DNA of 64,000 nt from the human T2T-CHM13v2.0 reference genome, Homo sapiens. The first letter of the stretch is position 1; each line of letters begins with the position of its first letter. The notes beneath the pieces were generated by a model. It had not been told where the DNA came from, ran no database searches, and was given only the letters and a program-made list of their open reading frames with translations. This document shows positions 17,308-37,660 of the stretch, one piece after another. The position numbers and the translations under genes were made by a program. Where the stretch lies: the NCBI RefSeq assembly GCF_009914755.1, contig NC_060937.1. One strand, given 5' to 3'.

Positions 17308-17912
17308 TGTTGTGGGATTCGAGAGACTGGAGAGACCAATGGATGAGACAGGAGGATTTCATTAAAGTGGCCACTGGCCTAGTGGATTCACATCCAAAAG
17401 GCTGAGCCCCAAACAAAGATGGGGCCTGGTTTTTAAGCATGCAGCTGCGTGAAACTCACAGGGCAGACTTAGCAAGCTTATAGAAGCAGAACGAAGGCAG
17501 TTAATCAAACAGTGACAAGTGTATGACTCAAACCTGCCTGGTGACCTCTGCTGGGCCACTCAGCAGGCTCTCAGCAGATGGTCAGTATTTTAGGCTGGCT
17601 CAGACATGTCTTGTGACCTTCTCAGTGTTGCACAGATGGAAAACAGGAACTTACAAAATCCTTACAAACTTACAGAAATAGTTACAAAAATATTTATGAG
17701 AGCAGAGCAAAGACATATTGGCCTAGGAAAGAATCTCAAAGGGGGAAGCTGATAAGAAGAACTTGTTCTTCTCATCCCCGTTCCTGGAGTCCATTCCTTC
17801 TGGGCTCTGCTTGGCCTTGTATATAAAGTTAGCTTAGTCCTAGCAGGACCTTGGAGTGAGTCAGCCTGGTACAGGCAGGAATTTAGGCTTTTCTCCTTCT
17901 AATTTCTGCTTT
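17308..17912 (-). mobile_element. ERV LTR, LTR22 (HML-5)-like
   Basis: tgttgtgggattcgagagactggagagacc...acaggaggatttcatt...catccaaaaggctgagccccaaacaaaga resembles the reverse LTR22 3' end. Right boundary approximate. Confidence 0.55.
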
Positions 17913-19004
17913 AGTAGGCCAGGGTTCTGGTTGTCACTGCTGAGAAAGTAAATTGTGTTCAGGCTGTCCATGGTTCTGGGCTCCCCCGGGTCTCTGAGGA
18001 GGGCTGTCCCCTCCATCACAGAGAATATCAGGACACTAGCCTGTTCCTAGTTATACTTACACACTCCTCTCATGTTGTCTATGGAGTGGAGGCTGCAGGG
18101 AGGGTGACATCCTAGTTAGTCCCAAGTGCCAGACTGCCTGAAGCTCACTGTTAACAAGTCCTGCCTTGGAGAAGAAGGAAGGGTGTCTCTGTGAACCTCC
18201 CACCTGGGCCGAAGGGAGGCCACTCTCTCCTCTGCCTCTCCCCAGCCTTGGTCTTCTGCACTCCTAGTGAACCTCTCACCCCCTGCCTACAGGCCTGAAA
18301 TCTCAAGACCATGATGACCTCTCGTCACCCCTGAATCCAGAGCTTTCCCTTTACAAAGGGGAAACTGAGACCTGGAGCAGGGCTGATGTTCAGTCAGCGC
18401 ACAAGGGAATAGATGAATTGGTGGTAAAATACTGAAATAGTTCCAGTGTGGATGGAAAGGAGCCGCTGCCCTGAACATCTCTACCCCCCCACCTCAGCCC
18501 ATCCTCCAGGACCCTGGGTCAGCACCAGGAGCATCAAAGTGGCCAGGATTGGCTGAAGCCCATGCTAATGGCTCTGCCAGTCCTTCTCCCCACCAGAGAG
18601 GGCAGGGGAATTCAGGCCATCTGGAGGTAGCACTGTGACTGTATATGCAGTAGTCAAACCTTGTGTGCCACCATCCCTGACATTGTTGATAAGGGCATCA
18701 GGCTACATCCCTCTGGTACTCAGTGGTAAGCATCTAAAATCTTAAATAAAAAATTAAAAAAGCTTTCAAAATATAGGACTTAACATATGAGGCTGCGTAA
18801 ACATCTCTTTAGCAGTTGTCCAACTCGTGCTTCTGGTTCTGCCTCCCCAGAGAGTGGATGACCTGGGCCACCCTCCACCACTGCCCTGTAAGGCCATGGG
18901 ACACACAGCCCATCAGTTCTCTTCACGTTGTCATCCCCCTTCAGATGGGAGAAAATACACCTGCCTCATTTTTGTAACTTCTGTGTGGACATTCCATGAC
19001 AGAG

Positions 19005-19380
19005 CTTCACTAAATGTGTGATGAAGAACTGAATGAATGAATGAATGAATGAATGAATATGAGAGCAAATGAATGAATGGCTCAGATCCTGGGCTGGAAC
19101 GCTGTGTATGAGGATGGTGGGTAGAGGAGGGTCTGTTTTTCTTGCCTTTAAGTCATTACTTGTCATTTTGGGGCAGAAGCACAGGCTTTGAATGCAGACT
19201 GACTGGACTTTAATCCTGGCTTTACTAGTTGTGATTGTGTGACCTCGTACATGTTACTTAAACCCTCTGTGCCTGTTTCTTTATCTGTAAAATGGAGATA
19301 ATAAGATGACAAAGGACAGTGGTAAGAATTAAATGCTTAAAAAAATCGCAGTTTGTATTAAGTCCTCAATAGATTGGGTT
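19005..19380 (+). mobile_element. L2 tail with (TGAA)n followed by MIR
   Basis: cttcactaaatgtgtgatgaag...(tgaa)n, then MIR core tgtgtgacctcgtacatgttacttaaaccctctgtgcctgtttctttatctgtaaaatggagataata. Confidence 0.75.
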
Positions 19381-19834
19381 TAGCATCATGAGTGCATGTG
19401 TTTCTGGAGCAATGCTCATCTTGGGTTGGATGGTGCCTGCACAGAGAAAGACTCTGGCCTCTTCTCATCTACATGTATCTGTCTTATGCCTGGTTCCCAT
19501 TCCCAGATCCTTGGAAGATCCATATTGCTGAAATGGTGAAGGGTGATGGGCACCTCAGGACAACTAAGTTGCTCCCCAAACATCTTCCCCCTCCCAAATT
19601 CTCCTGTGGTCTTTAGCATTTAACAGGAATCTCTGGACACTCCAAGGGGTGATCCTCTCATGGAAGGCCAGTGGGGAGGAGGCTGCGGGAAAGGTCAGGC
19701 ACTGTGCACTTCCCTGACAGCTGCAAATGGTTCTGTTTCCAAGCCCATGGGTCACTACAAATAAGGCAAGTTATATGACATAATAATGTGATTCTTTGGT
19801 GCCTCAGTCCACACTGGCACTTTAATACTCCTAG

Positions 19835-20012: not shown

Positions 20013-20287
20013 GGTAGGGCACAGTGGCTCACACATATAATCCCACCGCTGAGGAAGGTCAAGTTGGGAGGATCGCTTGAACTCCAGGCGTTCAAGACTT
20101 GCCTGGGCAACATGGTGAGACCCTGTCTCTCCAAAATATATATAAAATATAATAGCCAGGCATGATGGCACCTGGCTGTTGTCCCAGCTACCAGCTAATC
20201 AGGAGGCTGAGGTGACAGCATAGCTTGAATCTGGGAGATTGAGGCTTCAGTGAGCTGTGATCATGACACTGCCCTCCAGCCTGGGTG
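20013..20287 (+). mobile_element. AluJ, 3'-truncated at the junction with the GC-rich array
   Basis: ggatcgcttgaactccaggcgttcaaga... ends at ctccagcctgggtg with no tail. Confidence 0.85.
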
Positions 20288-23200
20288 GCCCCTGGCCCCT
20301 CCACAACCTGCGCTAGAAGAGCTGGGCCCTGGCTCTGGGCACCATGCAGCCTCTGAGGTGGGGCTGAGTGCCAGTTCCTGCCCTCCTGCAGCTGGGGACC
20401 AACACCCTGACTTAGGCGCTGTGGAGGCTTCTGGCCCAAGGGTCCGCACTGCTGGTGGCACTGGCAGGGTCGGAGTTTGCCACAGCTGCTGCTGCGCGCC
20501 TTGTGCAGGTTACCACTGCAGCTGAACCTACATCAGAGGCAGGCAGGGCTCGTCCCAGACAGCTTGGGGATCTCTGAGTGCACGGCCCTTTCACCCTAGA
20601 GTCAGTTCTTTCTTGCCGGAGCCCAGAGCGGGGTGTGCAGGTACTGGGTACAGGGCAGCACCCAGGAAATGGCTGAGCGGCCGGTTCCCACCCTCCTGCA
20701 GCTGGGGCCTGACCACCTGAATTAGCCTCTGGGCGGCGTCTGGCCCTGGGATCCGCCTGGCTGGTGTAGGAGCATGGTCTGGGGTTGCCTCCAAGGCTGC
20801 TGCCCGCACCCTGTGCAGGTGGCTGCTGCAGCTGAGCCCATCACCTGGCAAGGCGTTTCCCAGACAGCCTCAGGGTCATGGAGTGGACCACTGTCCCAGC
20901 CTAGGGTACGCTCTTCCTTTGCCTGCACCCAGAGTTCTGGGTCGCGGGCACTGGGAACTGTGCAGCCAAGGGGACTGCGCCGAGGGCATAGGTTTCTGCC
21001 CTGCTGCAGCTGCGGCGCTGACTGCCTGAATTAGGCGCTGAGGCGACGTTGTCCCCGGTGTCCTGGCTCTTGGTGGTGCATGCAAAGTGCCCGGTTGCTC
21101 TGTTGCTGCGGCGCCCTTGTACAGGTGGCAGCTGTAGCTGAGTTCTCAGTAGACGCCGGCAGGGTTGGTCCTAGAAAGCGTGAGGATCGCCGAGTGCACC
21201 GCCCTCCCAGCCTAGGGTCTACTTTTCCTTGGCCCGAGCCCAGAGATCGGGGTTTCAGGCGCTGGGCCCTGTGCGGCTGCCCAGAATAGGCTGAGCGGCA
21301 GCTTCCCGCCCTGGCAAGGGATCCAGCCGTGGAATCCTCACTGCTGTTGGCGGCAGGCAAGGTCAACGGGGTTTCCACCGCTGCTGCAGGGAGCCACCTG
21401 GCGGTGGTAGCTGCAGCTGAGCTCGTGGCAGAGACTGGCAGGGCTGGTCCCAGACACCCTGAGGGTCTCTGGGTGCGTCGCCCTACCACCCTAGGGTCTG
21501 CTCTTCCTTAGCCTGCTCCCAGGACGCGGTGTACGAGCGCTAGACTCTGAGCAGCCTCCAGGATGGGGCTGAGCGGCGGATTCCTGCCCTGCTGCAGCTA
21601 CAGTCTGAATTAGGCGCCACCGCAGTATCTGGCCCTGGGGTACGTGCTACTGGTGGCATAGACAGAGATGGGGGCTGCCACAGCTGCTATGGGGCTGAGC
21701 AGCCGATTCCCGCCCTCCTGTAGCTATGGGACGGACCACCTGACTTAGATGCCTTGGAGGCATCCGGCCCTGGGGTCTTTGCTGCTGGTGTCTGCGGGCA
21801 GGGTCAGGACTGCCACTACTACTGCCGTGCTCCATGCGCAGGTGCCAGCTGCAGCTGAGCCCAAGGCAGATGCTGTCAGGGCTGGTCTGAGGCTGCCTAA
21901 GGGTGGCTGAGTGCACCGCCCTTCCACCCCAGGGTCCGTTATTCCTAGGCCGGCGCCCAGATTGCAAGGTCGTGGGCGTTGGACACTGTGCAGCCATGAG
22001 GATCTGGTTGGGCGCAGATTCCCGCCCTCCTGCAGCTGAGAGGCCAACCTCCTAACAGGCGCTGCAGTGACCTCTGGCTCTGCAGTCCGCGCTGCTGCTG
22101 GAGCTGGCAGAGACCAGAGCTGCCACCGCTGCTGCTTCCAGGAGTGTGCAGCTGGCAGCTGCAGCTAAGCCCGCGTCGGAGGCTGGAAGGGCTTATTCCA
22201 AAAGCCTCGAGGGTCCCCGAATGCATCGCCCTCCAACCCTAAGGTCCAGTCTTCCTTGCCCGCGCCCAGAGAGTGGGGTTGCAGGCGCTGAGCATAGTGC
22301 AGGCGCTGGGAGATGGGGCTAAGCTGCAAGTTTTCGCCCTCTGGCTGCTGGGGGGCCGGCAGCCTGAGTTAGGCGCCGCGGCGGCTTTTGATCATGCGGT
22401 CCGCACTGCTGGTGGCTTGCACAGGGTTGGGGGCTGCCACAGCTGCTATAGTTCACCGTGTGCAAGTGGCAGCCGCCCCTGAGCCCACCGCTGACGCTGC
22501 AGGGCTGGTCCGGTCCCAGACGGCCTGAGGGTCATTTGCCCGCGCCCAGATCACCCGGTGGCTGGCGCTGGGCATTGTGCAGCCTCCAGGAATCCGCTGA
22601 AGGGCAAGTTCCCGCTCTTCTACAGCTGTGGGCCGACTGCCTGATTTTGGCCACTAGGTGGAGTATGGCTCTAGGGTTTCGAGGCCGCTGGTGTCGGCGG
22701 GCGGAGTCCGGGTTTGCAGCCGCTGTGCGCCATGAGCAGGTAGCAGCTGCAGCGGAGCTTTAGACCGAGGCTGGCAAGGCTGGCCCCAGACGGCCTGAGG
22801 GTCAGGGAGTGCAGGGTCCTCTCTTCCTTTGCCCTTACCCAGAGCGGGTTGTGCCGGCGCCGGGCTCTGTGCGGGCGCTGGGCTCTGTGCAGCCGCGGAG
22901 ATGGGGCTGAGCAGCGGATTTCCGCCCTGCTGCAGCTGGAGGACGATTACCTGAATTAGCCGCTGAGGCGGCATCTGGCCCTGAGTTACTGCTGCTGGTG
23001 ACGCGGGCAGGGTCAGGGTTGGTTGCAGGTGGCAGCTGAAGCTAAACCCATTGCGAGACTCAGGGTCACCAAGTTCACCGTCCTTTCAGCGTAGTGTCTG
23101 ATCTTTGGCCCGCGCCCAGACTGCGAGCTCGCCTGCGCTGGGGATTGCATAGCTTCTCGGGGGCAGTCAGCGCCAGTTTCACGTCCTCCTGTAGCTGCGT

Positions 23201-23650
23201 GGCCTAAGGTCTTAGGCGCCGCGGCGCTATCTGTCCCTGCTGTCCACGCTGCTGGTGGCGGGGACAGGGTCAAGGGTTGCCACTGCTGCTCCCGTGCGCC
23301 ATTGGCAGGTGGCAGTTGCAGCTGAGCCCACAACTGAGGCTGTTGGGGCTGCTCCCAGGTTGTCAGAGGGTCACCGAGTTCACCGACATGCCACCCTATT
23401 TTATGCTCTTTCTTGGCCCGCACCCAGAGCGCCGGGTTACGGGTCCTGGCCCTGTGCAGCCACGGGGATGGTGCTGAGTGCAGGTTCCCGTCTTCCTGAG
23501 ATGCGGGGCGACCACTGGAATTAGCCTCTGTGGTGGTATCTGACCCTAGGGTCCGAGCTGCTGATGGCGTGGGCGGGGTCGAAGTCGCCTCTGTTGCTGC
23601 AGCGTGCCATTTGCACTGTCGTCTGGAACAGGCTGGTCTGTGCTGTGCAT
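20288..23650. repeat. GC/CpG-rich degenerate tandem array, unit ~310 bp, ~12 copies
   Basis: Anchor ttcc(c/t)gccctcctgcagct recurs at about 20381, 20691, 20999, 21309, 21587, 21713, 22025, 22337, 22615, 22925, 23184 and 23491. Confidence 0.9.
22648..22666 (+). promoter_or_regulatory. Candidate CTCF motif
   Basis: tggccactaggtggagtat versus the CTCF core TGGCCACCAGGGGGCGCTA. Motif match only. Confidence 0.35.
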
Positions 23651-24149
23651 GGTCAGTGGAGTCTTCTCTGGGCATTCTTCACTGATATCTGCTGACATGG
23701 CTCATCTTCTCTTTGATTTTGCATGTATTGGTACCCACTGATGAAGTATCTGGTCACCCACTGCCATTTTCCTCTAGCCTCCAAGACTTCACATTCTGAG
23801 GCCAGCATGTCCCACCAGGGGCCTCCACTGGTCCTGTCAAACCAGTTGTGAGTCCCCCTCCCACCAAGCTTGGAGAGACTGGCTTTTCAGACAGCACTCA
23901 CAAGCTGAGAGTAAGGAAATTGATCTCTCAGGCACTTCCCCCTGTCCTGCCACTCTGTCATTCCTGGGACACCCTATGTGCACTAGAGAAGTAAGACAAC
24001 AGCCTGCATATTTTCTCATCTTTAACTGTCTGTTTTTTCCTATCCATCTGTTTGAGCGAGTCCCAGGAGGATGTTGAGGCTGAATACCTGATCAGAGACA
24101 CAGGCAGAGCCATAGTCACATCTCCTGGGAACTTTCTTCTTCCTGTGTA

Positions 24150-24751
24150 GTTAAAAGCTCTTCTCTTCCTCTTCTTCATAGAAATTCCCCTTACACTAAA
24201 CCTTTGACTAAAACCATCCCCTCAGCTTGATAAAATTTTAGACAGGATTATTTCTGATTCTTGGCTCCTGGCCTCTTTTTTTCTTTAGCATATTTTAGAA
24301 ATGTTATCATTGTAAATTCTTTCTCTGCCTCTTTGATAAATAAATCTTTTTAAGAGCCCACTTGCCAGTTTTACACTTCAGAAATGTCCATTTCAAGGAC
24401 CTCAGAGCCATGCCTTTGAAATGTAATCCTCAAGAAAGATAACACCATTATCTCCCAGATTCCATGAAAGAGTAAGAGCCAAATTTTGGTAGGCATATTG
24501 CTCTAATTTGTAAAATTACCTTCTGTCATAAAGATAAAAGATAGTTTAATATTCCTTTGGAAAAAGACAACTAGCAAAGACAAGGGGTCTATGATCTCCC
24601 CCTCATCCCAGCTCTTAAAATCTCTACTGCTGTTTGTTTCAGTGGAGCTGAGTTCAGACTAAGTTCTGGCCTCTTTGTCCTTTTGCAATAGCCTTCAATA
24701 ACAGCTTTTTTATGTGTTTAACTTTGTCTGGTGCAATTGTTTTCTTTGACA
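24150..24751 (+). mobile_element. ERV1 LTR, MER67-like
   Basis: Ends ...ttgcaatagccttcaataacagc...tgtttaactttgtctggtgcaattgttttctttgaca, as recalled for the MER67 3' terminus. Confidence 0.65.
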
Positions 24752-27700
24752 CTTTCCACCCTAACTAGAACTTCCATTAAAGTCATAGTAGGATTCAAGG
24801 CAGCCAAACTTGACTCACATATGTAAAAAAAACTTGTTAGGATTTAGAAACCCATATTCTCTTCAATAAATTGTTTCTTCAGACTGTTGCCTTATTAAAA
24901 CTTTCTAGTTCTTATTTTGGCATCAAAAAGGAGAATACCAATTTTTAAATAAGTCTCTGCTCACTTTTAATTTCTGCTATCACAATTTTATTGCTTTCCA
25001 TGGCTGAACAACAAGAAGACCAGAACACAATTTTAAGTTAAATTTTATTTAATTTTTACTATTACAATTTTATTGCTTTCTCTGACTGAAAAGAGAAAAC
25101 TCAAACAAAGTAGTCTAGTCTATAAAGTGAAGACTAGAACAAAGAATCATGTCTCAATACATTTCAGAAAGTTACTTCCATTTAACATCAATGGTGTCAT
25201 TTAATATTCTTAACTTTCCTATCAAGTAGATAATATTATTACCTCTATTTTATAGGATATTAAGTCTTATATATTATACATAACCAGCTGAAGGTCATGT
25301 AGCATGTAGATATGATAGGCATACAAAGAAACAATGACATTAGAAGCAGAGGAGGGAGAAGGATTAGAAGGCTAAACCTAGGTCGGTTAAGAGAAAAAGA
25401 AAAACTAGGAGGAGACAAATTCTTGTTAGAAAAAAAAATGATCAAGAAAGAGCAAGACAGTGGCGCAGAACTCTCCAGCTATCGTACCCCTATAGAAACA
25501 TCAATATGAACAACTGCCCACATGTGAAATTACCATTACAAGAGCCAACAGAACCTCAATACATGAACAAAGTTATGAAGCACCTTTAGCCTGTGAAGGT
25601 GGGTAAAACCATGGCTTATGCAGTCAGAGAACCAATACTCTGTGACTGTGATACTCCTCCCTCAGGCCATTATGGTACCATCTGCAGAAACTCCCATAGA
25701 GCTTATAGTTTTTACACTGAAAAAAAGCAGGAGGTTGACATTTGTTTTTTCCACTATACTGAGTGCCTTCACAGTAGCCTCACTCCTGTATCAGCCCACA
25801 GGGGGCACCATGAGTGCCAAAAGGGATGAACCACCTGAGGCATGTTAAGGACATAAGCGGAGGTGGGGCCAGCAACAGCCACCATGTGAAACATAATACA
25901 CAGACTCTACAGGCTTGATGGCCTGACTTGTTCTCCCCCATAGCCAGGGGCTCCCTGTGGATCACCCATGGGCCCATCCAGCAAATGTTGCATCAGTGAT
26001 GGAGCCATTGGAAGACTTACGTCTAATGTGGGATTTGCGCTCTCTCTAACGCTAAAATGGAATACGATGATAAGTCCGCTCAAAATTTCTTAATAAGCCC
26101 ACTTAAAAGTAGTCACAAACACACCCAAACTGAGAAGACTCAAATAAATATCTAAATCATTAATGTGTACACAGATGTATATCTACATATAATAATGATA
26201 GCTTAGGAAAAGTTGCCTCTCCAAATGGACAAAACAAGGTGTCAGCAACTGAACTTAAAGACATACAGATGAACGATCTGGCAGGCAAAGAATTCAAAAT
26301 GGCTGTTTTAAGAAGAGCCTGAACACTGAGAAAGCAGAGACACAATTCAGAAATGTACCAGAGAAATTCAACAAAGAAATCAAAATAATGGGAAAAATCA
26401 CATGTAAATCCTGGAGCAGCAAAGTTCAATGGACACTTTGAAAATCCAATGGAAGGCATCAACAGAAGAACTGATCAAGCAGAAGAAAGAAACAGTGAGC
26501 TCAAAGACAGGCTCTTTGAAAATACATGGTCAGAGTAGAATGAAAAGAAACAAAGAAAGTTTATGAGATTTGTGGGACACCAACAAAAGAGCAAATCTAC
26601 ATATCATTGGTGTTAAAGGGGAACTAAGAATGCAAAAGAGATAGTTTATTCAAAGAAATAACAGAAAACTTTTTAAATCTGGAGAAAGATTAAAATGTTT
26701 AGGATGGTCAAAGTGCCCAATCATATTTAATCTGAATAAGACAACCAAAGACATATTATAATTAAACTCTCAAAGGTCAAAGACAAAGAGAAGACCCTGA
26801 AAGGACTAAGAAAAAGGAAACAACACATAAGAGAATTCCAATATGCCTGGCAGCAGACTTGTCAGCAGAAACACTACAGGCCAGGAGAGAGTAGGATAAT
26901 AGATTCAAGTGCTGAATTAAAAAAACTGTCAACCATGAATAAACTATCCAGCATAGCTATCATTTAGAAATAAAGGAGAGATTGAAACATTCTCAGACAA
27001 ACAAAAAGCAAAGGAATTCACTGTAATCAAACCAGCCTTACAAGAAATGCTAAATATTGTTCTTCGAACTGAAAGGAAATAGCAGCAATATGTAACACAA
27101 AAAATCTGAAGGTATAAACCCACAGATAGAAGTGAGGATTCAGACAAATTTGGAGTGCTCTAATATGGTAATAATTGGATGTAAACCATTTATATATCCT
27201 TAGTAGGAAGGTTAAAATACAATACAAATAATAATAATTACAATAATTTGTTAAGGAATCGCAATATACAAAGATGTAAATTAAGACATCAAAAATGTAA
27301 AATGTGAGGGAGTGAGGGAGTGAGGGAGTTAAAGAGTAGATTGGTTTCTTTTCCCCCTTTTTTGAATCAAAATTAAGTTGCTATCTCTTTAAAATAACTT
27401 ATTGTAACCATAAAATGTTCTTTGCATGCCTTGTGGTAACCACAAAGCAAAAACTTTTAAAAGATACTCTAAAAATTAAAAAAAAAAAGAAACCGAAACA
27501 CACTGATAGAGTAAATCACTTAATCACAAAGGAAGGTAGTGAAATCAATCAATCAATCAAAGTACAAATTAAAAAAAAAACATGAAAACAAGTAATAATA
27601 TGGCAGGACCAAGTCCTTGCCTATCAATAATTATCTTGTATGTAAATGGATTATCCCATTTAAGACATATAATGGCTACACTGATTAAAAACAAGACCTA

Positions 27701-28837
27701 ACTATAAACTTTCTACAGGAAATTCACTTCATCTGTAAATACACACATAAATTGAAAGTGATCAGATGGAAAAATATATTTTATAAATATGGAAACTGAA
27801 AGAAAGCCAATATAGATATATTTATATCAGATAACATACGCTTCAAGCAAAATCCTATAAAAACAGACAAATACAGCCATTATATAATGATAAAGGGATC
27901 AATATCACAAGATAATATAATTGTAAATATATATGCCCTCTATATTGAAGCACCTAAATATATAAAACAAACGTTAATAGATCTAACAGGAGAAACAGCA
28001 AGCAATAAAATAATAGTCAGAAACCTTAACATTCCACTTTCAGCAATAAACAGATTATCAAGACAGAAAATCAACAAAGAAACATCATATTTAAACTGAA
28101 CTCTAGACCAAATAACTTAGCAGTCATTTACAGAACATGTTATCCAACAATTGCATAATTCACAGTCTTCTCTACTGCTCATGGAACATTTTCCATGATA
28201 GATCATATATTAGGCACAAAATGAGCCTTAGCAAATTCAAAAAAAAATCAAAATTATATCACATCTTTTCTGACAATATAGAATAAAACTAGAAATAAAC
28301 AACAAGAACTTCAGAAATTGTGCAAATACATGCAAATTAAACAATGTGTCCCTAAACAATGGGTTAAAAATAAATTTTGTTTCATTTTTAAAATTCTTAA
28401 GACAAACGAAAATGAAATCAGAACATATAAAAACTTAGGAAATACAGCAGAAAAAGTCCTCAGAGGGAAGTCTGTAGAAATGAATTTCTATATGAAAAAA
28501 AGAAAACTCTCATTAATAATTTAAGAATGCATTTCAAGGAATTATAGAAACGTGAACAAACTTAGCCCCAAATTGGTAAAAGAATATAGATAATGAAGAC
28601 CAGAGCACAAATAAACCAAATGGAGACAAAAATATGAAAGATCAATGAAATAAAAAGTTATTTTTTGAAAAGATAAACACAATTGATATATCTTTAGTCA
28701 GATTAAGAAAAAAGAGAGAAGATTCACATAAATAAAATCAGAGATGAAAAAAGACATTAAAATGGTTACTACAGAAATATAAAGAATCATGAGAAAGTAC
28801 TAAAATTATATGCCAATAAATTAGAAAACCTAGAAGA

Positions 28838-29050
28838 AAACCTGGGGAACATAGTGAGACCCAGTCTTTACAAAAATAAAAATAAAAATTATCCAGGTGT
28901 AGTGGTGTGCACTTGTAGTCCTAACAACTTGGGAGGCTGGAGCAGGAGGATCACTTAAGACCAAGAATTTGAGGCTGCAGTGAGCTATGATTGCACCACT
29001 GTACTCCAGCCTGAGTGACAGAGAAAGCCCTGTCTCTAAACCAAAAATAT
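28838..29050 (+). mobile_element. 5'-truncated AluJ inside L1
   Basis: cctggggaacatagtgagacc...ggatcacttaagaccaagaatttgaggctgcagtgagctatgattgcacc. Confidence 0.85.
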
Positions 29051-29052
29051 TT

Positions 29053-29174
29053 AAGAAGAAAGAAGAAAGAGGAAGAAGAAGAAGAAGAAGAAGAAGAAGA
29101 AGAAGAAGAAGAAGAAGAAGAAGAAGAAGAAGAAGAAGAAGAAAGGAAGGAGGGAAGGAGGGAAGGAAGGAAAG

Positions 29175-29237
<63 letters not shown>

Positions 29238-29313
29238 CAGACAAAGAAAGAAAGGAAAAGGAAGAAAAGAGAGAGGGAGGGAGGGAGGAAGGAAGGGACG
29301 GAAGGAGAAGAAA
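29053..29313 (+). repeat. Homopurine microsatellite block: (GAA)24, GGAA/GGGA, (GAAA)15
   Basis: Pure GAA at 29072-29143 and GAAA at 29176-29235, located at the Alu tail. Confidence 0.95.
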
Positions 29314-30387
29314 ATAAAAATTGAGGATCCAATGCTTATACTGCTGAATTCTTCAAAACATTTAAAGAGGAACTTATACTAATTATTTACAAACTGTTCC
29401 CAAAAAAAGTGAAAAGGAGGAAACTCTTCCATACTCATTCTATGAAGACAGAATTACCTTATTCCAAAATGCGACAAGAACAGTGAAAAACTAAACTACA
29501 GGCCAATATCAGTGATGAACATAAATGCAAAAATTCAAAACCAGCAATGCTAGCAATCATAATTTGAAAGCACATTAAAAAGATGATTCACCATAATCAG
29601 GTTGTATTTGTTCCAGGGAGGCAAGGAGGGCTTATGATATATAAATCAATAAATGTGATACACCATATTCGATAAGGTAAGATAAAAATCATATAATCAT
29701 TTAAATAGATACAGAAAAAGCATTTGACAAAATTCAATGTTTTTTGTAAACATAAGATCTCTTAACAAATCAGTTATAAAAAGAATATAACTCAATAAAA
29801 TAAAGGCCATATATGATAACCCACAGCCAACATGATACTGAATAAGGAAAAATTGAAAACTGTCTCTCTAAGATCTAGAACAAGACAAGGATGTTCACTT
29901 TAATAACTTCTCTTCAACATAGCACTGGAAGTCCTAGCTAGAGCAATTAGAAAAGAGAAAGAAAAGACATCCAAATTGAAAAACAAAAAGAAAGTCAAAT
30001 TGTCCCTGTTTGCAGATGACATGATCTTATGTATAAAAAACCCTATACTGAAAAACAGAAATAGTAAATGAATACAGTAAAGTTTTAGAATACAAAATCA
30101 GCATAGAAAAATCAGGTGCATTTCTATACCCAACAGCATACTATCTGAAAAAGGAATCCCCATTGAAAATAGCTATAAAAAAATAAAATGCCTGGCAAAA
30201 TAAAGACGTCTAAAATGAAAACTATAAAACATTGATAAAAATCAATTGAAAAGATACAAATAAAGACAAGGTTATCCCATTTTTTGAATTAGAAGTGTTA
30301 ATACTGTTAAAATGACCATCATACTCAAATCAATCTATAGGTCCAATACAATCTCTAACTAATTTCCAATGTAATTCTTCACGTTCT

Positions 30388-31219
30388 GCGGAGGACATGA
30401 ACAGACACTTCTCAAAAGAAGACATTTATGCAGCCAAAAAACACATGAAAAAATGCTCATCATCACTGGCCATCAGAGAAATGCAAATCAAAACCACTAT
30501 GAGATATCATCTCACACCAGTTAGAAGGGCAATCATTAAAAAGTCAGGAAACAACAGGTGCTGGAGAGGATGTGGAGAAATAGGAACACTTTTACACTGT
30601 TGGTGGGACTGTAAACTAGTTCAACCATTGTGGAAGTCAGTGTGGCGATTCCTCAGGGATCTAGAACTAGAAATACCATTTGACCCAGCCATCCCATTAC
30701 TGGGTATATACCCAAATGACTATAAATCATGCTGCTATAAAGACACATGCACACGTATGTTTATTGCGGCATTATTCACAATAGCAAAGACTTGGAACCA
30801 ACCCAAATGTCCAACAATGATAGACTGGATTAAGAAAATGTGGCACATATACACCATGGAATACTATGCAGCCATAAAAAATGATGAGTTCATGTCCTTT
30901 GTAGGGACATGGATGAAATTGGAAACCATCATTCTCAGTAAACTATCGCAAGAACAAAAAACCAAACACCGCATATTCTCACTCGTAGGTGGGAATTGAA
31001 CAATGAGATCACATGGACACAGGAAGGGGAATATCACACTCTGAGGAATGTGGTGGGGAGGGGGGAGGGGGGAGGGATAGCATTGGGAGATATACCTAAT
31101 GCTAGATGACGAGTTAGTGGGTGCAGCGCACCAGCATGGCACATGTATACATATGTAACTAACCTGCACAATGTGCACATGTACCCTAAAACTTAAAGTA
31201 TAATTAAAAAAAAAAAAAA
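30388..31219 (+). mobile_element. Young 5'-truncated L1 (L1PA2-type), ORF2 C-terminus plus 3'UTR and poly-A
   Basis: Uninterrupted 200-aa ORF2 C-terminus (30397-30999). accactatgagatatcat. The 3'UTR has gatgacGAGttag and cttaAagtat, the non-Ta, non-preTa states. Confidence 0.92.
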
Positions 31220-31249
31220 GATTTTTAAAACCGTTTTTTTGGTTCTGCA

Positions 31250-32110
31250 GGCGAAGGCTGTGGCCGCGCTCCCGCCGGCCAGTTCCCAGCAGCAGCTCAT
31301 CGCCCCTGCTCCGCGCCTTCGCTCCAGGCCCGCACGGTCGCAGCCCCGCGGGGATCAGCACTGAGCCGGTCCCGCCGCCGCCCCAGTGTCCGGGCTGCTG
31401 CTGCGGGAAGCCAATCGCCCAGCGCTTGGAGGAGGGCGACGAGGCCTTCCGCGCGAGCGAGTACCAGAAAGCAGTCGGGCTCTTCCGCTCCATGCTGGCC
31501 CGGCTGGCGCAGCCCGACCGCGGCCGGTGCCTGAGGCTGGGGGACGCTCTGACCCGCGCCGGCCGCCTCCCGGTGGCCCTGGGCGCGTTCCGTGTAGCCG
31601 GGAGGCTGGAGGCGCTGCGGCCGGAGGAGCTGGGGGAGCTGGCGGGCGGCCTGGTGTGTCCCGGCCTGCGCGAACGGCCACTGTTGGCGAGGAAGCCGGG
31701 CGGCGAGCTCAAGGCTAGGGAGGGCCGGCCCTGGCGCCCCGCGCGCCCCGCGACCTGCTTGGCTGCCCGCGGCTGCTGCACAAGCCGGTGACACTGCCCT
31801 GCGGGATCACGGTCTGTGAGCGCTGCGTGGAGCTGGGGCCCGCGCGGCCACAGGCGCGGGCGCGGGCGCGTGAACGTAGTGCTGAGCCGCCTGCTGGAGA
31901 GGTTCTTCCCGGCCGAGTGCCCGCTGCGCAGGCTGGAGGGTCAGGCGCGGAGCCTGCAGCGCCAGCAGCAGCCCGAGGCCGCGCTGCTCAGGTGCGACCA
32001 GGCCCTGGAGCTGTGACTTGGCTGTGGGGCTGGCCCGCCTCCCTGACCCCTGTCAAGCCCAGCGGCTGGAGCTAACCCGCGGGCCTGGGCTTTCGAGCGC
32101 TTTGTCCAGG
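31250..32110. promoter_or_regulatory. CpG island over the LONRF2 pseudo-exon
   Basis: Very high GC and CpG density, in sharp contrast to the AT-rich L1 flank. Confidence 0.8.
31354..32013 (+). pseudogene. LONRF2: LONRF2 (LON peptidase N-terminal and RING finger 2) unprocessed pseudogene, first coding exon only
   Basis: Translates to (I)STEPVPPPPQCPG...LEEGDEAFRA...FRSMLARLAQPDRG...PVTLPCG...RVNVVLS...QARSLQRQQQPEAALLRCDQALEL, matching the recalled LONRF2 N-terminus. Start ATG is ATC, there are frameshifts near 31730-31790 and 31855-31870, and it is followed by gtgact and intron-like DNA rather than exon 2. Confidence 0.9.
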
Positions 32111-33504
32111 CGTTGGGGGTCACTTCGTTTACTAATGATGGGAAGGTGAAAGGTGGGGGAGGCCACTCCCTGCAGTCGGGGTGGCAGGTGTCAGAGGCCA
32201 CATGCAACCCACTGGTTTTGTCTTTTCTAGGATGCTGATAAGTTTCCCGCGGCCCCCGGAGCAGCTCTGTAAGGCCCTGTAGTTGCCTTTCGTTCCCTTC
32301 TGCTCTATTGAGGAGTGGGAGGATGACAAAGTGTTTTTGCTCAACCCGAAGGAAAATGCACATGGAAGGACACACTGGGTTATTATTTGAGTAGCCCAGG
32401 CAAGAGACCAGCGGTCTGCTTCAGCCATGAGACCACCTCAGGCCAAAATAGCCTTGTGGTTGTTTTACTTCTTTTCACCAAATGGGTCTTTTTGGGGTTT
32501 GTGGCGTGTCCCATGTAACGATGATCTCTTGGTTCCCCTTTCTCATTCACACCCGGGAGCTGAGGTGGGGTGGGAGAGTGGGGGGGGGAAGGGGAGTGGC
32601 CACCTGCGCCAGGTGTGAGAGAAGCCACACCTGAGACCAGCCCCTCTGTCCTCCTGCCTCTGCATGCAGCGTCCCTGCAGGAGGCAGAAGGGGTGAAAAG
32701 TAGCCTCGATGTGAAAGTGCTTGTGTGTCCCTGAGGGGGGAAGCAAGTCACAGTCAGGGCACTGGTTCCTGTCATTGGGTGCAGTACAAAGAAGGACCCC
32801 AGGACATGCGGTGCAGACGGGAGCACAGAGAGGGTGGGTGCTACTGGGGTGCACAGGCAGCTTGAGGAGGATGGAGATGGCAAACTTCCCTTTGTCACAC
32901 CAGGTCCACGTTCAGGGCCAGAGGACCACCAGATCCCCAAAGCCTCCGGTGCTTCCGAGGCAGAGGAGAGGCAAGGCCGGTGGCCCCCGGCGTCCAGGGA
33001 CCTGGCAGCCACCACTGAGGCCCACCTGCTTGTCCCTCAGCCGGGTGCTCACTGGCAGCCACACTCCCGGTCTCTGGGCTCTGCCCAGGACGTGTGTTTG
33101 GGCTTCTCTCCCCAGCAGAAGTCATCAGCGTACCCTCTGCATCCCACGGATTTGCTTCGTTTCTGAGGGAATAATTAAGGAATGTTAGTATGATATCAGA
33201 AAATAGCTAATTATGGTGAAGAGCTAACAGGGCAATCTGGGAAGTTGTGGAGCTCTAGTTAGTGATGACAGAAGAGGAACATATTTGACTGTTTTGTGCT
33301 ACACCCAGGTTCTCAGGAGGTGGCCAGGGAGGAGACTTGGCACTGTGCCATGCTCAGAGCCCCTGGCCCCAGGGACTGTTTCCCTGTGGGAGTTTGGATG
33401 AGAGGCAGTTGGCTGGGAAGCTCAGGATGGAGTGAGGAAGGAGAACGACTTGAGGTGCTTGGGTTGGAAAGATCTAGTACCCCAGGAGGGACTGGCTGTG
33501 GCCT

Positions 33505-33830
33505 GCACACACCCCAAACTCACACACTCTGTCATGCTCACACAGACACACACACTCATACTCATAGGTCCAAGCTCACACACCACACTCACATGGCTTA
33601 TTCACACACTTACACATATTAACACACATACACACTTATATTTACACATCCACACGCAGTTATATTCCACATACACACTCATACTGCCAAGTTCAAACAC
33701 CACTATCACACATTTCTTCACATTCACACAATAACTCACATACACACTCTCACACTTGTACACACTCACCTACCCACTCTCCATTACACACATTTACCTG
33801 TCCGTTCTCACACACATGCACAAACACAAA
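33505..33830. repeat. Degenerate (CA)n low-complexity tract
   Basis: cacacact/cacata mosaics over ~320 bp. Confidence 0.9.
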
Positions 33831-34769
33831 GCCAAATTAGAGCCATTTTCCTGGTCCCACACACACAAAAATGATACCTCAGTTTCTTGGTCTTGACCAC
33901 AATTGGGCGCATGATTCCATCCAACCAACAAGGTGGGGCGGGAATGAAATCCTATCACGTCCTCAGGCCGTGGAGAAAAAAAAACTATGTCAGGCCTCTC
34001 TAATGCCTCCCACAAATGGGCAGGAGGGATTGAAACAGAAAAGGGGTTCCTCCTGACATGTGGCATTGATGGAGCCCGGTTCTGCCTCATGCCAAGCCCT
34101 GCCTTGTCCCTCAATGATGGAAAATGGTTGTGTGTCTTGTTTCTTAGCCTCCAACTCTGTCTTGGTACAGAGTAGAGACTTGAGTCTCAGTTCCAAAGAC
34201 AGGAGTCCTGCTGAGCTGACCCGCCCACTGACAGATGAAGTCTTGCCATCTGCTGACCAAGTTCCCCAAGGCCCCTTGAGACTCAACTTCTGAAGAGGGT
34301 CTGCTCAGAATTCCCCGTCCCCATGATCTGCCCGGCTGTCGGGACACTGGTGAGCCTGCTCTGTGGGGAGTCCCTTTTCAGCTCAGTCAGCAAGCGGCTC
34401 TTCTCTATAAAGAGGCAGGGGATGAACCTCCTCTCTAGTTTTAGCAGCAGAGGCCATGAGACCCATGGCAGAGGCCAGAGCTGTGCAGGCTGTAGGAGGT
34501 ACCATGTCAGGGATTTCAAACGGAGGAAGGTACTTTCCAGAGAGTACTGCAGGGAACCAAGCCATATCCACCGTAGCTGCAATAAAAACTCTGAGGCTCA
34601 GCTTAAACTCAATCCTAGAAATGAAGTCCCAGCACAAGCTTTGCAGGATAAGCAAAATCTAGAGAAGAGAAAATGCAGACCCAGGCAACGATAAACATAA
34701 GTCATCTTGACACCACGGAGCAGATACAGTGCCTTCTCCACGTGCGGTGAATGAGGTTCTCACGTCTGT

Positions 34770-35035
34770 TAGTGTGTGGAATTGAACATCAATATCAGAA
34801 TCATTCTGTGTTACCTACAGCTGATTTTATGTTGTTATGCCTGTCACCTGATGAATGTGTATCTTTAGCCAACCTTTTCACCCCAAAGCTCCTGCCCCAA
34901 CCCCTCCTCCTGGAAGTGCCCATCTCTGGTCTCAGCAGGAGGCTGTTCTTCCCAGCCTGTGGGGTGGCCTTGCAGGCTGTAACCCTCTACAAGAAATAAA
35001 GTCTTCTCTCCTTTTCCAAATTTCGATATTTGCTT
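34770..35035 (+). mobile_element. ERV1-class LTR 3' fragment (family uncertain)
   Basis: gcaggctgtaaccctctacaagaaataaagtcttctctccttttccaaattt is an LTR-like poly-A signal and U5. Confidence 0.55.
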
Positions 35036-36769
35036 AATCCTTAGCTTCTATTTTTTCAGGCTTTTAAACTGCTTTTAGGTCATGGCCTCTTCTCTGTAGG
35101 GTCTGGAGGCTGACAGATGTCCAGCAGGAAAGAGCTGCTAACTAATTCCAGTAGCGCTGCTCTTCTGCCTAACGGAGGTGTTTAAATGTTGATTTTGGCA
35201 AAATCTATGAGCAGGTTGCTCCCCCTCTCCCGAGATCTCTCACAATACTTTGTAAAACCCAATTTAGCGCATCGTCTGTGAGAGCAGCTTTTACTGGTTC
35301 TGCAGCGATCTTCCTTACTCATAATCTATTGAAATGTTGTAAAGTGATGCAGATTTGTGGCATGTGAGGAGAGCATGTAGACACACACTCTGCTGTGATT
35401 CAAAGTGCCCTAACACCTTCCTCTCCCCTACAGGTTGTGATGGGAGGGTGCTCTGGGTCACTGAGGAAGGGGAGTCATAAAGGAGCAGAGGCCCCCCGTC
35501 GTGAGTGCCATCTGACCTTGAGTGTGGCCTCTTGTTCTAGCCCACAGGCCCACCATGGTCTGACTAAATGCTGGCACTGCTCATACATCCACTTTTAAAA
35601 ATTGAGTTGAACATGAGAACATGATCATTCATATTTTATCCACTTGCATGTATTCAATAACATCCTTTCCCTGTTCTCGTCTCTGCTTTACCGCCTTTTT
35701 CTTTAAAGAATGAATGTTTCCATGTTTTATATCCACAGAATTTCTGGTTTTTCCCTTTGGAGCCCAAGAAGCAAGGGCAGAATGAGGAACATGATGTTTC
35801 TTACAGACAGTTACTCATGAGGCCGCAGCACAGAAACTGCAAGAAATGTCAGTCATAAAGTGTCCCAGTGCATTTTAAATTGATGATTACTAAAATCCTT
35901 CTTTATCTATAGGGGATCTAAAAAATTAAACAACTCATAATTTAAACACGGTTGCCAGGTAGCCGGAGTCAAAAATCAGGAGAGGCTCTGTGGTCTGAAG
36001 TCTCCTAGTGCTCACCTTGATGAGGGTCTAGTTGCCTAACGGGTTGGTGTAATGATGTCATTCAACACAAGCAAAACACAACTCCCTTGGAGTTGTTCAA
36101 AAAATCAGGAAATAGAAAAAAAATAAGGGAGAATAAAATATTGACAGGAGAGAAAAATGAAGAGTTACTTGGAGATTTGAAGGAGGTGAAATGGGCAAAA
36201 AGTAAATTTAGCAATTAGAATTTAAAGTCAGTGGATAATTAAGTTGAATAATTTATTCTTATGTCCATGTACTTTGGTTTTAAAGTTTTGATTAATACTC
36301 ATTCAACACTAATTTCTAACAAATTAAAACATTTCCACATTGTCTATTTTTACCAGTGAGCTTGTAATAAAGATCCGCTAGTAATTTTAGTACACCATAA
36401 CCTTTCAAAAGAAGCCCATAGAATAAACTAATTTTTAAAGAGTCACATTTTATTCAATGTTTATTTATACATGTTACTAGCAATAAACTCTTTTATCTTT
36501 AATTTTGAGAAGCTTTACAAATACAGAAAAGTAGAATGACTAATAGAGCCGGTAGCCAGGACTCAGATTGGAAAAATAGGTCTAATCGGTTGTTACACTG
36601 TGTTTATGTCATACATTTCATTTATTTTTATCAAATAAAAATTAGAATTTATAAAATGTTGATTAAAAGGAAAACATTCTGAGTAAAGTTTAGTCCCATG
36701 TTTCTTCCTCCAAATCTCTTTGTTCTACATTAACAGGTAAGGATAAGTATGGATGGGGAGGCTGGAAAA

Positions 36770-37660
36770 GGGGCATCCTTCCCCATGCGGTCCCCAGAGC
36801 CACCTTCTCCAAGCAGGACTTGGGGAACATCCTTCTCCATCCAGGACCTAGGGGGCATCCTTTCTCCACCCAGGACCTGAGGGGTGTCCTCCACCCAGGA
36901 CTTGGGAGATGTCTTATCTACCCAGGACTTGAAGGGGATCCTATTCCATTCAGGAGTGGGGGAAATTCTTCTTCAACTGGACTTGGGGGGCATCCTTCCC
37001 CATTTAGGACTTTGGGGGCATCCTTCTCCATTTAGGACTTGGGGGGCATCCTTCTTCATCCAGGACTAGGGGGTTATCCTTCTTCATTCAGGACTGGGGG
37101 TTGTCCTTCTCCATGTAGAACTAGGGGCATCCTTCTCCATTCAGGAATTGGGGAGCATCCCTCTCCATCCAGGACTTGGGGGACATCTTTTTCCATCCAG
37201 TAACTAGGGGGCATCCTTCTCCATCCAGGACTGAGGGGGGCATCCTTCTCCACTCAGGAATTGGGGGGCATCCTTTTCCATCCAGGACTTGGAGTCCATC
37301 CAGGACTTGGAGGACCGTCTTTCTCCATCCAGGATTTGGGGGACATCATTTTCCATCCAGTAACTAGGGGGTATCCTTCTCCATCAAGGACTAGGGGGCA
37401 TCCTTCTCCATCCAGGACTGGGGGGCATCCTTCTCCATCCCGGAATTGGGGTCATCCTTCTCCATCCAGGACTTGGGGAACATCTTTTATCATCCAGTAA
37501 CTAGGGGGCATCCATCTCCATCCAGGACTGAGGGGGGCATCCTTCTCCATCTGGGACTGGGGGGCATCCTTCTCCATCTAGGACTGGGGGGCATCCTTCT
37601 CCATCCAGTATTGGGGGTCATCCTCCTCCATCCAGGACCTAAGGGGTGTCCTTTTCTGTG
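36770..37660. repeat. ~27-bp minisatellite (GGGGGCATCCTTCTCCATCCAGGACT[T/A/G]), roughly 30 copies
   Basis: Direct tandem repeats visible. Variant units containing ccagtaactag at ~37197, 37357 and 37494. Confidence 0.95.

What the first reader, a model, noticed from the sequence alone, without database searches (positions are those of the whole stretch)
20288..23650. Unassigned ~310-bp GC/CpG-rich macrosatellite-like array
Seen: 12 diverged units with spacings of about 310, 308, 310, 278, 126, 312, 312, 278, 310, 259 and 307 bp, so the period is stable with unit-specific deletions. CpGs are retained and CAGCTG E-boxes recur in most units. It does not match my recollection of gamma satellite (~220 bp), ACRO1 (147 bp), SST1 or TAR1. 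Inference: high inter-unit divergence together with CpG retention suggests long-term germline hypomethylation, so it could act as a repeat-built CpG-island promoter or boundary element.
Basis: partly seen in the sequence, partly recalled or inferred. Interest (0 to 1): 0.7.

Follow-up and report, generated by a model that had tools for sequence, protein, structure and literature searches.

The report
Orphaned ankyrin-gene promoter repeat array
This 3.3-kb run of twelve old 311-letter repeats is the same repeat that sits just in front of about twenty ankyrin-gene starts elsewhere in the human genome, but here its gene is missing; its mutation pattern suggests it stays mostly unmethylated in the germ line, and it is likely a drifting promoter relic rather than a working element.

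Summary
It is not a free-standing satellite. At 20 of 22 other family loci fetched, the unit lies head-to-head just upstream of an ANKRD26-family exon 1 or its flank (ANKRD30, ANKRD36, ANKRD18 types; names recalled). The window copy has lost that exon and its NRF1-motif core promoter. It is cut at both ends by unrelated duplicons and was spread by segmental duplication to 9 pericentromeric copies. Units form a star tree with position-specific clades: one old amplification, then frozen. Since the chr13/15/21 split, array CpGs mutated by transition at 29/826, against 49/268 in flanks (p=8e-14), like the nearby LONRF2P2 island (12/501). This implies low germline methylation. Non-CpG sites and the E-box block evolve neutrally. 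No hg19 RepeatMasker satellite row covers the chr8 sister arrays; T2T/Dfam names could not be checked. Verdict: an apparently undescribed promoter-derived repeat family; this copy is likely a neutral orphan CpG island. Promoter or boundary function is unshown.

The parts
20020..20287 (+). Alu fragment lacking its 3' end, joined directly to the array (Alu/AluJ label from recall); part of an unrelated upstream duplicon
   Evidence: Matches other Alus in the window; weak SRP hit 20021-20131, E 0.32. Homology to ANKRD30-type loci starts at 20288. Flank 17400-19800 has older relatives at chr10:14.22 and chr19:21.6 Mb
20288..20374 (+). Remnant of the degenerate gene-proximal 'unit 0'; at the chr10:37.157 Mb locus the homologous point lies 363 bp upstream of the ankyrin exon-1 ATG, on the opposite strand
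   Evidence: 82-84% identity to chr10:37.157 Mb over the first 186-223 bp; ATG at L025:2085; junction alignment
20375..21302 (+). Units 1-3 (310, 308, 310 bp), full length; CpG O/E 0.33, 0.31, 0.65
21303..21706 (+). Units 4 (278 bp, 5' deletion) and 5 (126 bp, 3' part deleted)
21707..22608 (+). Units 6-8 (312, 312, 278 bp)
22609..22918 (+). Unit 9; position 22725 is where the chr14 (x2), chr22 and chr2 paralogs end; in the three aligned they jump to window 35540 (12.8-kb deletion)
22919..23615 (+). Units 10 (259 bp), 11 (307 bp) and truncated unit 12; the family's terminal-type unit is absent
22471..23589 (.). Most CpG-rich part: 500-bp windows pass GC>=0.55 and O/E>=0.65
23616..25900 (.). Downstream flank, unrelated to the chr8 distal flanks; parts match 4q35, chr20, chr9 and acrocentric short-arm sequence at 77-80%

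Best explanation
The array is a gene-less copy of a 311-bp GC-rich repeat that elsewhere lies just upstream of ankyrin-gene first exons, likely amplified once long ago, cut loose by rearrangement, and now likely a neutral, germline-hypomethylated CpG island. Steps: (1) Shown: the unit lies head-to-head, a few hundred bp upstream of an ANKRD26-family exon 1 or its flank, at 20 of 22 other loci fetched, and was not found at ANKRD26 itself. (2) Inferred from the star tree: tandem amplification by unequal crossing-over at about the time these genes diverged, then loss of homogenisation. (3) Shown: this copy lacks exon 1, the NRF1-motif core and the terminal unit, and is bounded by foreign duplicons; inferred: rearrangements cut it out, and segmental duplication then copied it to chr2, 13, 14, 15, 18, 21 and 22. 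(4) Shown: CpG transitions run about 5-fold below the flanks and non-CpG sites at the flank rate; inferred: low germline methylation without selection. (5) Inferred from general CpG-island biology (recalled, untested): dense CpG/GC sequence recruits CXXC proteins (CFP1, KDM2B) and H3K4me3, which exclude de novo methylation in germ cells without a core promoter; in soma it would be largely silenced with the pericentromeric region.
For: Exon/flank homology: 12 ANKRD30-type loci and 3 chr8 loci, chr9:38.64 Mb, and chr2:97.62, chr2:98.05, chr5:29.03, chr13:24.23 Mb. No unit at ANKRD26. No exon homology in the window. NRF1-like motif at 7 distinct ANKRD30-type promoters and at ANKRD26, 0 in the window array. 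Tree: first and last units form clades shared by chr8 and ANKRD30 loci; inner units are star-like at 0.15-0.3/site and group by position across paralogs. CpG transitions 29/826 array, 49/268 flank, 12/501 LONRF2P2 island; non-CpG 147/8176 against 650/36316; E-box block 16/810 against 208/11597, p=0.68. Published LINC00588 primers map inside a chr8 sister array, antisense to the units and towards its ankyrin-like exon, so one family member is transcribed.
Against: No methylation, CAGE or ChIP data were seen for this locus. A candidate ICR in LINC00588 (ICR_533, hg38 chr8:57280020-57280373) is ~50% methylated in embryonic tissue and listed as sperm-methylated. It likely lies in the chr8 array or its adjacent exon (the only CpG-rich stretch nearby; placement relies on a recalled gene span), so low germline methylation is not family-wide. 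CpG decay is real over deep time (209 of 568 cells still CG at 22 CpG columns, against 505 of 670 at GpC). Gene conversion among paralogs and counting each site in three lineages inflate the p-value. Two loci (L023, L030) had no ANKRD flank in the fetched stretch. Conservation across units is slightly clustered (variance p 0.0007-0.06; E-box block p=0.012 at one of three window sizes), which could reflect older selection. Gene names are recalled, and Pfam gave no hit for the 74-aa exon.
Confidence: 0.7

Rival explanations
1. The orphan arrays are active germline or cancer promoters that start new pericentromeric lncRNAs, much as REP522 repeats act as cancer-activated promoters.
For: Promoter origin; low inferred germline methylation; island-grade distal units; LINC00588 is transcribed through a sister array; a DUXAP8 primer site lies 48.5 kb downstream, on the same strand, of the three chr14/22 copies; REP522 precedent.
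Against: No RefSeq transcript here (hub table); core promoter lost; neutral substitution rate. 48.5 kb exceeds the ~45-kb DUXAP8 span I recall, so its annotated start is probably downstream of the array.
Confidence: 0.2
2. The repeat matters mainly as a rearrangement-prone GC-rich element that marks or promotes segmental-duplication breakpoints.
For: Both ends of the window array are duplicon junctions; a 12.8-kb deletion starts in unit 9; the chr18 copy lacks ~150 bp in unit 0/1; eight ANKRD30-type loci carry an inverted partial copy ~0.85 kb beyond their array.
Against: No enrichment test against background breakpoints was run; the region is a mosaic anyway; no PRDM9 13-mer or G4 pattern (0 each); units at 64% identity are poor substrates for homologous recombination.
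Confidence: 0.12
3. It is already catalogued under a T2T-CHM13 or recent Dfam name that the hg19 table lacks.
For: Hoyt et al. added 62 entries whose tables I could not open.
Against: The preprint's main text has 0 hits for ANKRD, 310, 311 or 312, and its pipeline filtered segmental duplications and pseudogenes. The stretch is not among the longest masked stretches in the hub table.
Confidence: 0.15
4. It is a gamma-satellite-like chromatin boundary working through repeated CTCF or E-box binding.
For: GC-rich, pericentromeric, with CAGCTG in 11 of 12 units.
Against: One CTCF-like match in the whole array (recalled pattern); E-box block not conserved among paralogs; the period differs from gamma satellite.
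Confidence: 0.05

Closest known systems
REP522 (RepeatMasker satellite class; ~1.8 kb, largely palindromic)
   Same: GC-rich, spread by pericentromeric duplication. Lies at BAGE and, by hg19 rows plus recalled gene positions, directly upstream of ANKRD20A-family starts. Enriched for cancer-activated promoters.
   Different: No detectable sequence homology to a probable REP522 locus (L036; best HMM E 0.48). No large inverted repeat in the window array. No REP522 rows on chr8, at chr10:37.4 Mb or at chr9:38.6 Mb.
Gamma satellites GSAT, GSATII, GSATX
   Same: Old, highly diverged, GC-rich tandem repeats near centromeres.
   Different: ~200-216-bp period against 311; large arrays against 2-12 units; not tied to gene starts; no such row at the chr8 sister arrays.
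5' CpG-island promoters of the ANKRD26-derived genes (ANKRD30A/B, ANKRD36, ANKRD18A)
   Same: Same repeat unit, same orientation relative to exon 1. The ANKRD30B start region is methylation-variable and linked to expression.
   Different: The window copy has 12 units instead of 2-4 and has lost exon 1 and the core promoter.
Orphan CpG islands carried by segmental duplication, e.g. LONRF2P2 in this window
   Same: Same low CpG transition rate (12/501 against 29/826, p=0.33).
   Different: Built from tandem units; lower O/E (0.50 against 0.75).
SST1/NBL2, ACRO1, D4Z4-type macrosatellites
   Same: GC/CpG-rich tandem units on acrocentric chromosomes.
   Different: ACRO1 is 147 bp; SST1 and D4Z4 units are kilobase-sized (SST1 size recalled). 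This array shows no concerted evolution.

Membership tests
REP522 | ~1.8-kb, largely palindromic element | tested here: not met
   Best inverted repeat in 17-27 kb is 30 nt at 73%; the array is head-to-tail
REP522 | Sequence similarity to REP522 | tested here: inconclusive
   No hit against L036:4001-6400, but that this stretch is REP522 is inferred from hg19 rows, a recalled offset and its inverted repeat; the consensus was not available
REP522 | RepeatMasker annotation at family loci | tested here: not met
   REP522 rows 1-29 and 88-139 of 139 seen: none on chr8, none at chr10:37.4 or chr9:38.6 Mb; rows 30-87 not seen; the table omits blocklisted loci
Gamma satellite (GSAT/GSATII/GSATX) | ~200-220-bp monomer | tested here: not met
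   Period 310-312 against ~200/216 bp
Any hg19 RepeatMasker satellite (ACRO1, TAR1, GSAT, CER, HSAT, SATR, D20S16) | Annotated at the chr8 sister arrays or the chr21 paralog | tested here: not met
   No row on chr8 between 51,022,334 and 70,234,348; none on chr21 between 14,890,075 and 15,223,074 (paralog placed near 15.07 Mb by a recalled offset). Whether the table holds SST1 rows was not checked
T2T-CHM13 new repeats and composites (Hoyt et al.) | Match to one of 62 new Dfam entries | not testable with these tools
   Preprint supplements are closed; the main text has no matching terms
L1 5'UTR monomer or other retroelement repeat | Interspersed copies with independent flanks | tested here: not met
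   44 matches cluster at about 30 loci that share gene-derived flanks; adjacency to L1 ORF1 was not searched directly
Macrosatellite under concerted evolution | Units within an array more alike than units between arrays | tested here: not met
   Position-specific clades across chr13, chr15 and chr2; star-like within arrays
CpG island | GC>0.5 and CpG O/E>0.6 | tested here: inconclusive
   Whole array 0.642 and 0.50; sub-windows pass, mainly 22471-23589
CpG island | Unmethylated in the germ line | tested here: met
   Indirect, by mutation spectrum: ratio 3.1 against 12.4 in flanks and 2.1 at the LONRF2P2 island
CpG-island promoter | Transcription start and H3K4me3 at this copy | not testable with these tools
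   No epigenome data; no RefSeq transcript in the hub table
Coding or structured-RNA repeat | In-frame unit, Pfam or Rfam match | tested here: not met
   3 ORFs of 100 aa or more, 0 Pfam hits; 0 Rfam hits within the array
ANKRD26-clade upstream repeat (defined here) | Profile match to units upstream of ankyrin exon 1 | tested here: met
   Units at ANKRD30-type and chr8 loci score E down to 1e-50 to 1e-78; at ANKRD36-type loci 1e-10 to 1e-22; at the ANKRD18-type locus 5e-6 and 6e-8

The most novel reading that the evidence does not exclude
An uncatalogued 311-bp repeat is the shared upstream module of the ANKRD30/36/18 gene clade, and its amplified, gene-less arrays work as portable, sequence-autonomous germline CpG islands that seed new lncRNA promoters (LINC00588, possibly the DUXAP8/9/10 loci) inside pericentromeric duplications.
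Probability: 0.2. Interest if true: 0.6.

Novelty: new member of a known kind. Interest (0 to 1): 0.38.

Why it matters
It identifies an apparently unnamed repeat family at roughly 40 human loci and ties it to the promoters of a breast/testis ankyrin gene clade (expression recalled). The nine gene-less copies, with deletions of different extent, form a natural experiment on whether CpG-dense sequence alone stays unmethylated in the germ line next to pericentromeric heterochromatin, without a core promoter or selection. It also flags that a candidate imprint control region and published qPCR primers at LINC00588 likely sit in a multi-copy repeat family. No function for this copy is shown, which caps the interest.

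Tried and rejected
REP522 was my first guess, prompted by inverted partial copies at ANKRD30-type loci. It was rejected on the hg19 rows and on L036. Three stretches fetched to sample REP522 by recalled offsets missed (L031, L032, L034). Origin in the ANKRD26 promoter itself: no unit found. Coding repeat and structured RNA: no hits. CTCF, PRDM9 and G4 patterns: 1, 0 and 0. Selection on E-boxes: none. DUXAP8 start inside the array: not supported; the primer lies 48.5 kb away, and no paper seen gave start coordinates. The first paralog CpG test was polluted by non-homologous sequence in the chr14/22/2 rows; it was redone polarised (35/1110 against 5/44, p=0.016) and with longer flanks. Literature searches listed no paper describing this repeat; the library lacks most subscription papers, and Kaczkowski 2016 was not held. 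No ape or other mammalian genome was available.

Full report
Observation. The array is present as described. The unit is about 311 bp; units are 64% identical pairwise and 70-82% to their majority. TRF does not report it, but self-alignment gives E=1e-171 at one period. GC is 0.642 and CpG O/E 0.50, against 0.28 for the window. CAGCTG occurs 20 times (shuffles 6.0+-2.5), in 11 of 12 units; this follows from the sites present in the ancestral unit.

Copies in the genome. A search with the array gave 44 matches from 36 scored candidates. Nine are recent segmental-duplication copies: full length on chr13, chr18 (98%), chr15 twice (94%) and chr21 (93%); cut in unit 9 on chr14 twice, chr22 and chr2 (90%). 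In the three truncated copies aligned, a deletion joins window 22725 to 35540. Independent arrays lie at chr8:57.679-57.683 Mb (about 11 units) and 57.699-57.702 Mb (about 7), with short versions at 13 other places plus chr8:57.576 and chr13:22.18 Mb. A more distant subfamily (51-57% to window units for the five units measured) occurs at about 11 further loci and at chr9:38.64 Mb. These counts are lower bounds.

What it is. At chr10:37.157 Mb the units run on the minus strand, and a plus-strand exon begins 363 bp from the point homologous to window 20288. I recognise it as ANKRD30A exon 1 from recall; Pfam gave no hit on its 74 aa, but it aligns to the exon at the recalled ANKRD26 position. 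The same exon or its flank sits head-to-head with the units at 12 ANKRD30-type loci, the 3 chr8 loci (66-71%, decayed), 1 ANKRD18-type locus and 4 ANKRD36-type loci: 20 of the 22 non-chr13-type loci fetched. The misses are L023, a local duplicate 6.5 kb from L021, and L030. ANKRD26 lacks the unit, as does the ANKRD20A-type locus L036. The window has no homology to the exon or intron 1. An NRF1-like motif (recalled pattern) found at 7 distinct ANKRD30-type promoters and at ANKRD26 is absent from the window array. The left end is a junction with a truncated Alu whose flank traces to chr10:14.2 and chr19:21.6 Mb; the right flank resembles 4q35, chr20 and acrocentric sequence.

History. In a tree of 70 units (those covering at least 150 model positions, from 14 chosen loci), the first and last units form clades shared by chr8 and ANKRD30-type loci. 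Inner units radiate at 0.15-0.3 changes per site and group by position across paralogs. Inference: one early amplification, then no homogenisation. Non-CpG divergence from the family majority is about 17%, roughly ten times the 1.8% per lineage since the chr13/15/21 split and similar in depth to the ANKRD30-chr8 flank divergence. A rough, uncalibrated reading places it before the simian radiation. The related POTE branch left ANKRD26 over 35 Myr ago (PMC7073761, passages).

Methylation and selection. Polarising chr13, chr15 and chr21 over 17,341 aligned positions gives CpG transitions of 29/826 in the array, 49/268 in flanks (p=8e-14) and 12/501 in the LONRF2P2 island (p=0.33 against the array); counts are site-by-lineage. 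CpG transversions (24) nearly equal transitions in the array, as expected for unmethylated DNA. Non-CpG rates are 1.80% and 1.79%, and the E-box block changes at the background rate (16/810 against 208/11597). Deep-time decay is still evident (209 of 568 cells CG). Against a family-wide rule: ICR_533 in LINC00588 is half-methylated in embryonic tissue and listed as sperm-methylated (PMC9665137, supplement row and passages; PMC11043040, passages). LINC00588 primers (PMC7107012, methods passage) map inside the second chr8 array, and the only CpG-rich stretch there is that array and its exon, so the ICR likely lies in it.

Mechanism. I commit, at about 0.7, to a neutral orphan CpG island: a promoter-flank repeat stripped of its gene and likely kept hypomethylated in germ cells by its own CpG/GC density. 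The CXXC/H3K4me3 route is established knowledge for islands in general and was not tested here. An active lncRNA promoter (0.2), a breakpoint-prone element (0.12) and a boundary (0.05) are the rivals. The DUXAP8 primer (PMC11850567, passages) lies 48.5 kb downstream of three truncated copies, farther than the gene span I recall. PMC12776069 (passages and supplement rows) gave no coordinates.

Comparison with known families. The hg19 RepeatMasker satellite table of PMC8524813 (passages; supplement file 2 parts 19, 64, 97-99; REP522 rows 1-29 and 88-139 of 139) has no row on chr8 between 51.0 and 70.2 Mb, and none near the expected chr21 paralog; it omits blocklisted loci. REP522 (PMC4896275, PMC3560060, PMC6545021, PMC6925957, PMC11353194; passages only) is the closest analogue in position and possible behaviour, but showed no sequence match. 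Gamma satellite differs in period (PMC2588610, passages). The T2T repeat preprint (10.1101/2021.07.12.451456, passages; supplements closed) does not mention it, but its 62 new entries could not be checked. 10.1101/430603 (passages) reports a DMR at the ANKRD30B start linked to expression. Ten library searches found no description of the repeat.

Verdict. A real, apparently unnamed promoter-derived repeat family; a new member of a known kind (GC-rich, duplication-spread CpG-island repeats). Interest 0.38.

Noticed in passing
chr8:57.576-57.703 Mb (L029, L024/L027, L011): Three decayed ANKRD30-like first exons or flanks, each preceded by the repeat; LINC00588 is transcribed through the last array, towards its exon.
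   Followed up: partly
window 31150-32450: The LONRF2P2 pseudogene island also shows a germline-unmethylated mutation spectrum (12/501 CpG transitions).
   Followed up: partly
window 36803-37638: 28-bp tandem repeat, about 30 copies; much shorter in the chr14 and chr22 paralogs because of a further 1.7-kb deletion.
   Followed up: no
window 30393-31214: About 0.8 kb absent from the chr15 and chr21 paralogs, ending in sequence like an L1 3' end (label recalled): a likely younger insertion just upstream of LONRF2P2.
   Followed up: no
L012-L020, e.g. L013:3055-3171: Eight ANKRD30-type loci carry a ~120-bp inverted copy of unit 0/1 about 0.85 kb beyond the array.
   Followed up: partly
L025:900-1722 (chr10:37.157 Mb): At the ANKRD30A-type promoter the first unit is duplicated and interrupted by Alu sequence, leaving only half units.
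   Followed up: no
chr22:16.400, chr14:13.417 and chr14:13.609 Mb: The DUXAP8 primer site lies 48.5-48.6 kb downstream of each truncated array copy, on the same strand.
   Followed up: partly
L030:1495-2010 (chr13:22.184 Mb): Two isolated, CpG-poor partial units with no ANKRD flank within 1.5 kb.
   Followed up: partly
L031:8800-10000 (chr13:18.098 Mb): A long pyrimidine-rich, imperfect short-period repeat, unrelated to the 311-bp unit.
   Followed up: no
window array against chr8 arrays: CpG density tends to rise away from the lost gene in the window array but falls away from the gene in both chr8 arrays.
   Followed up: no
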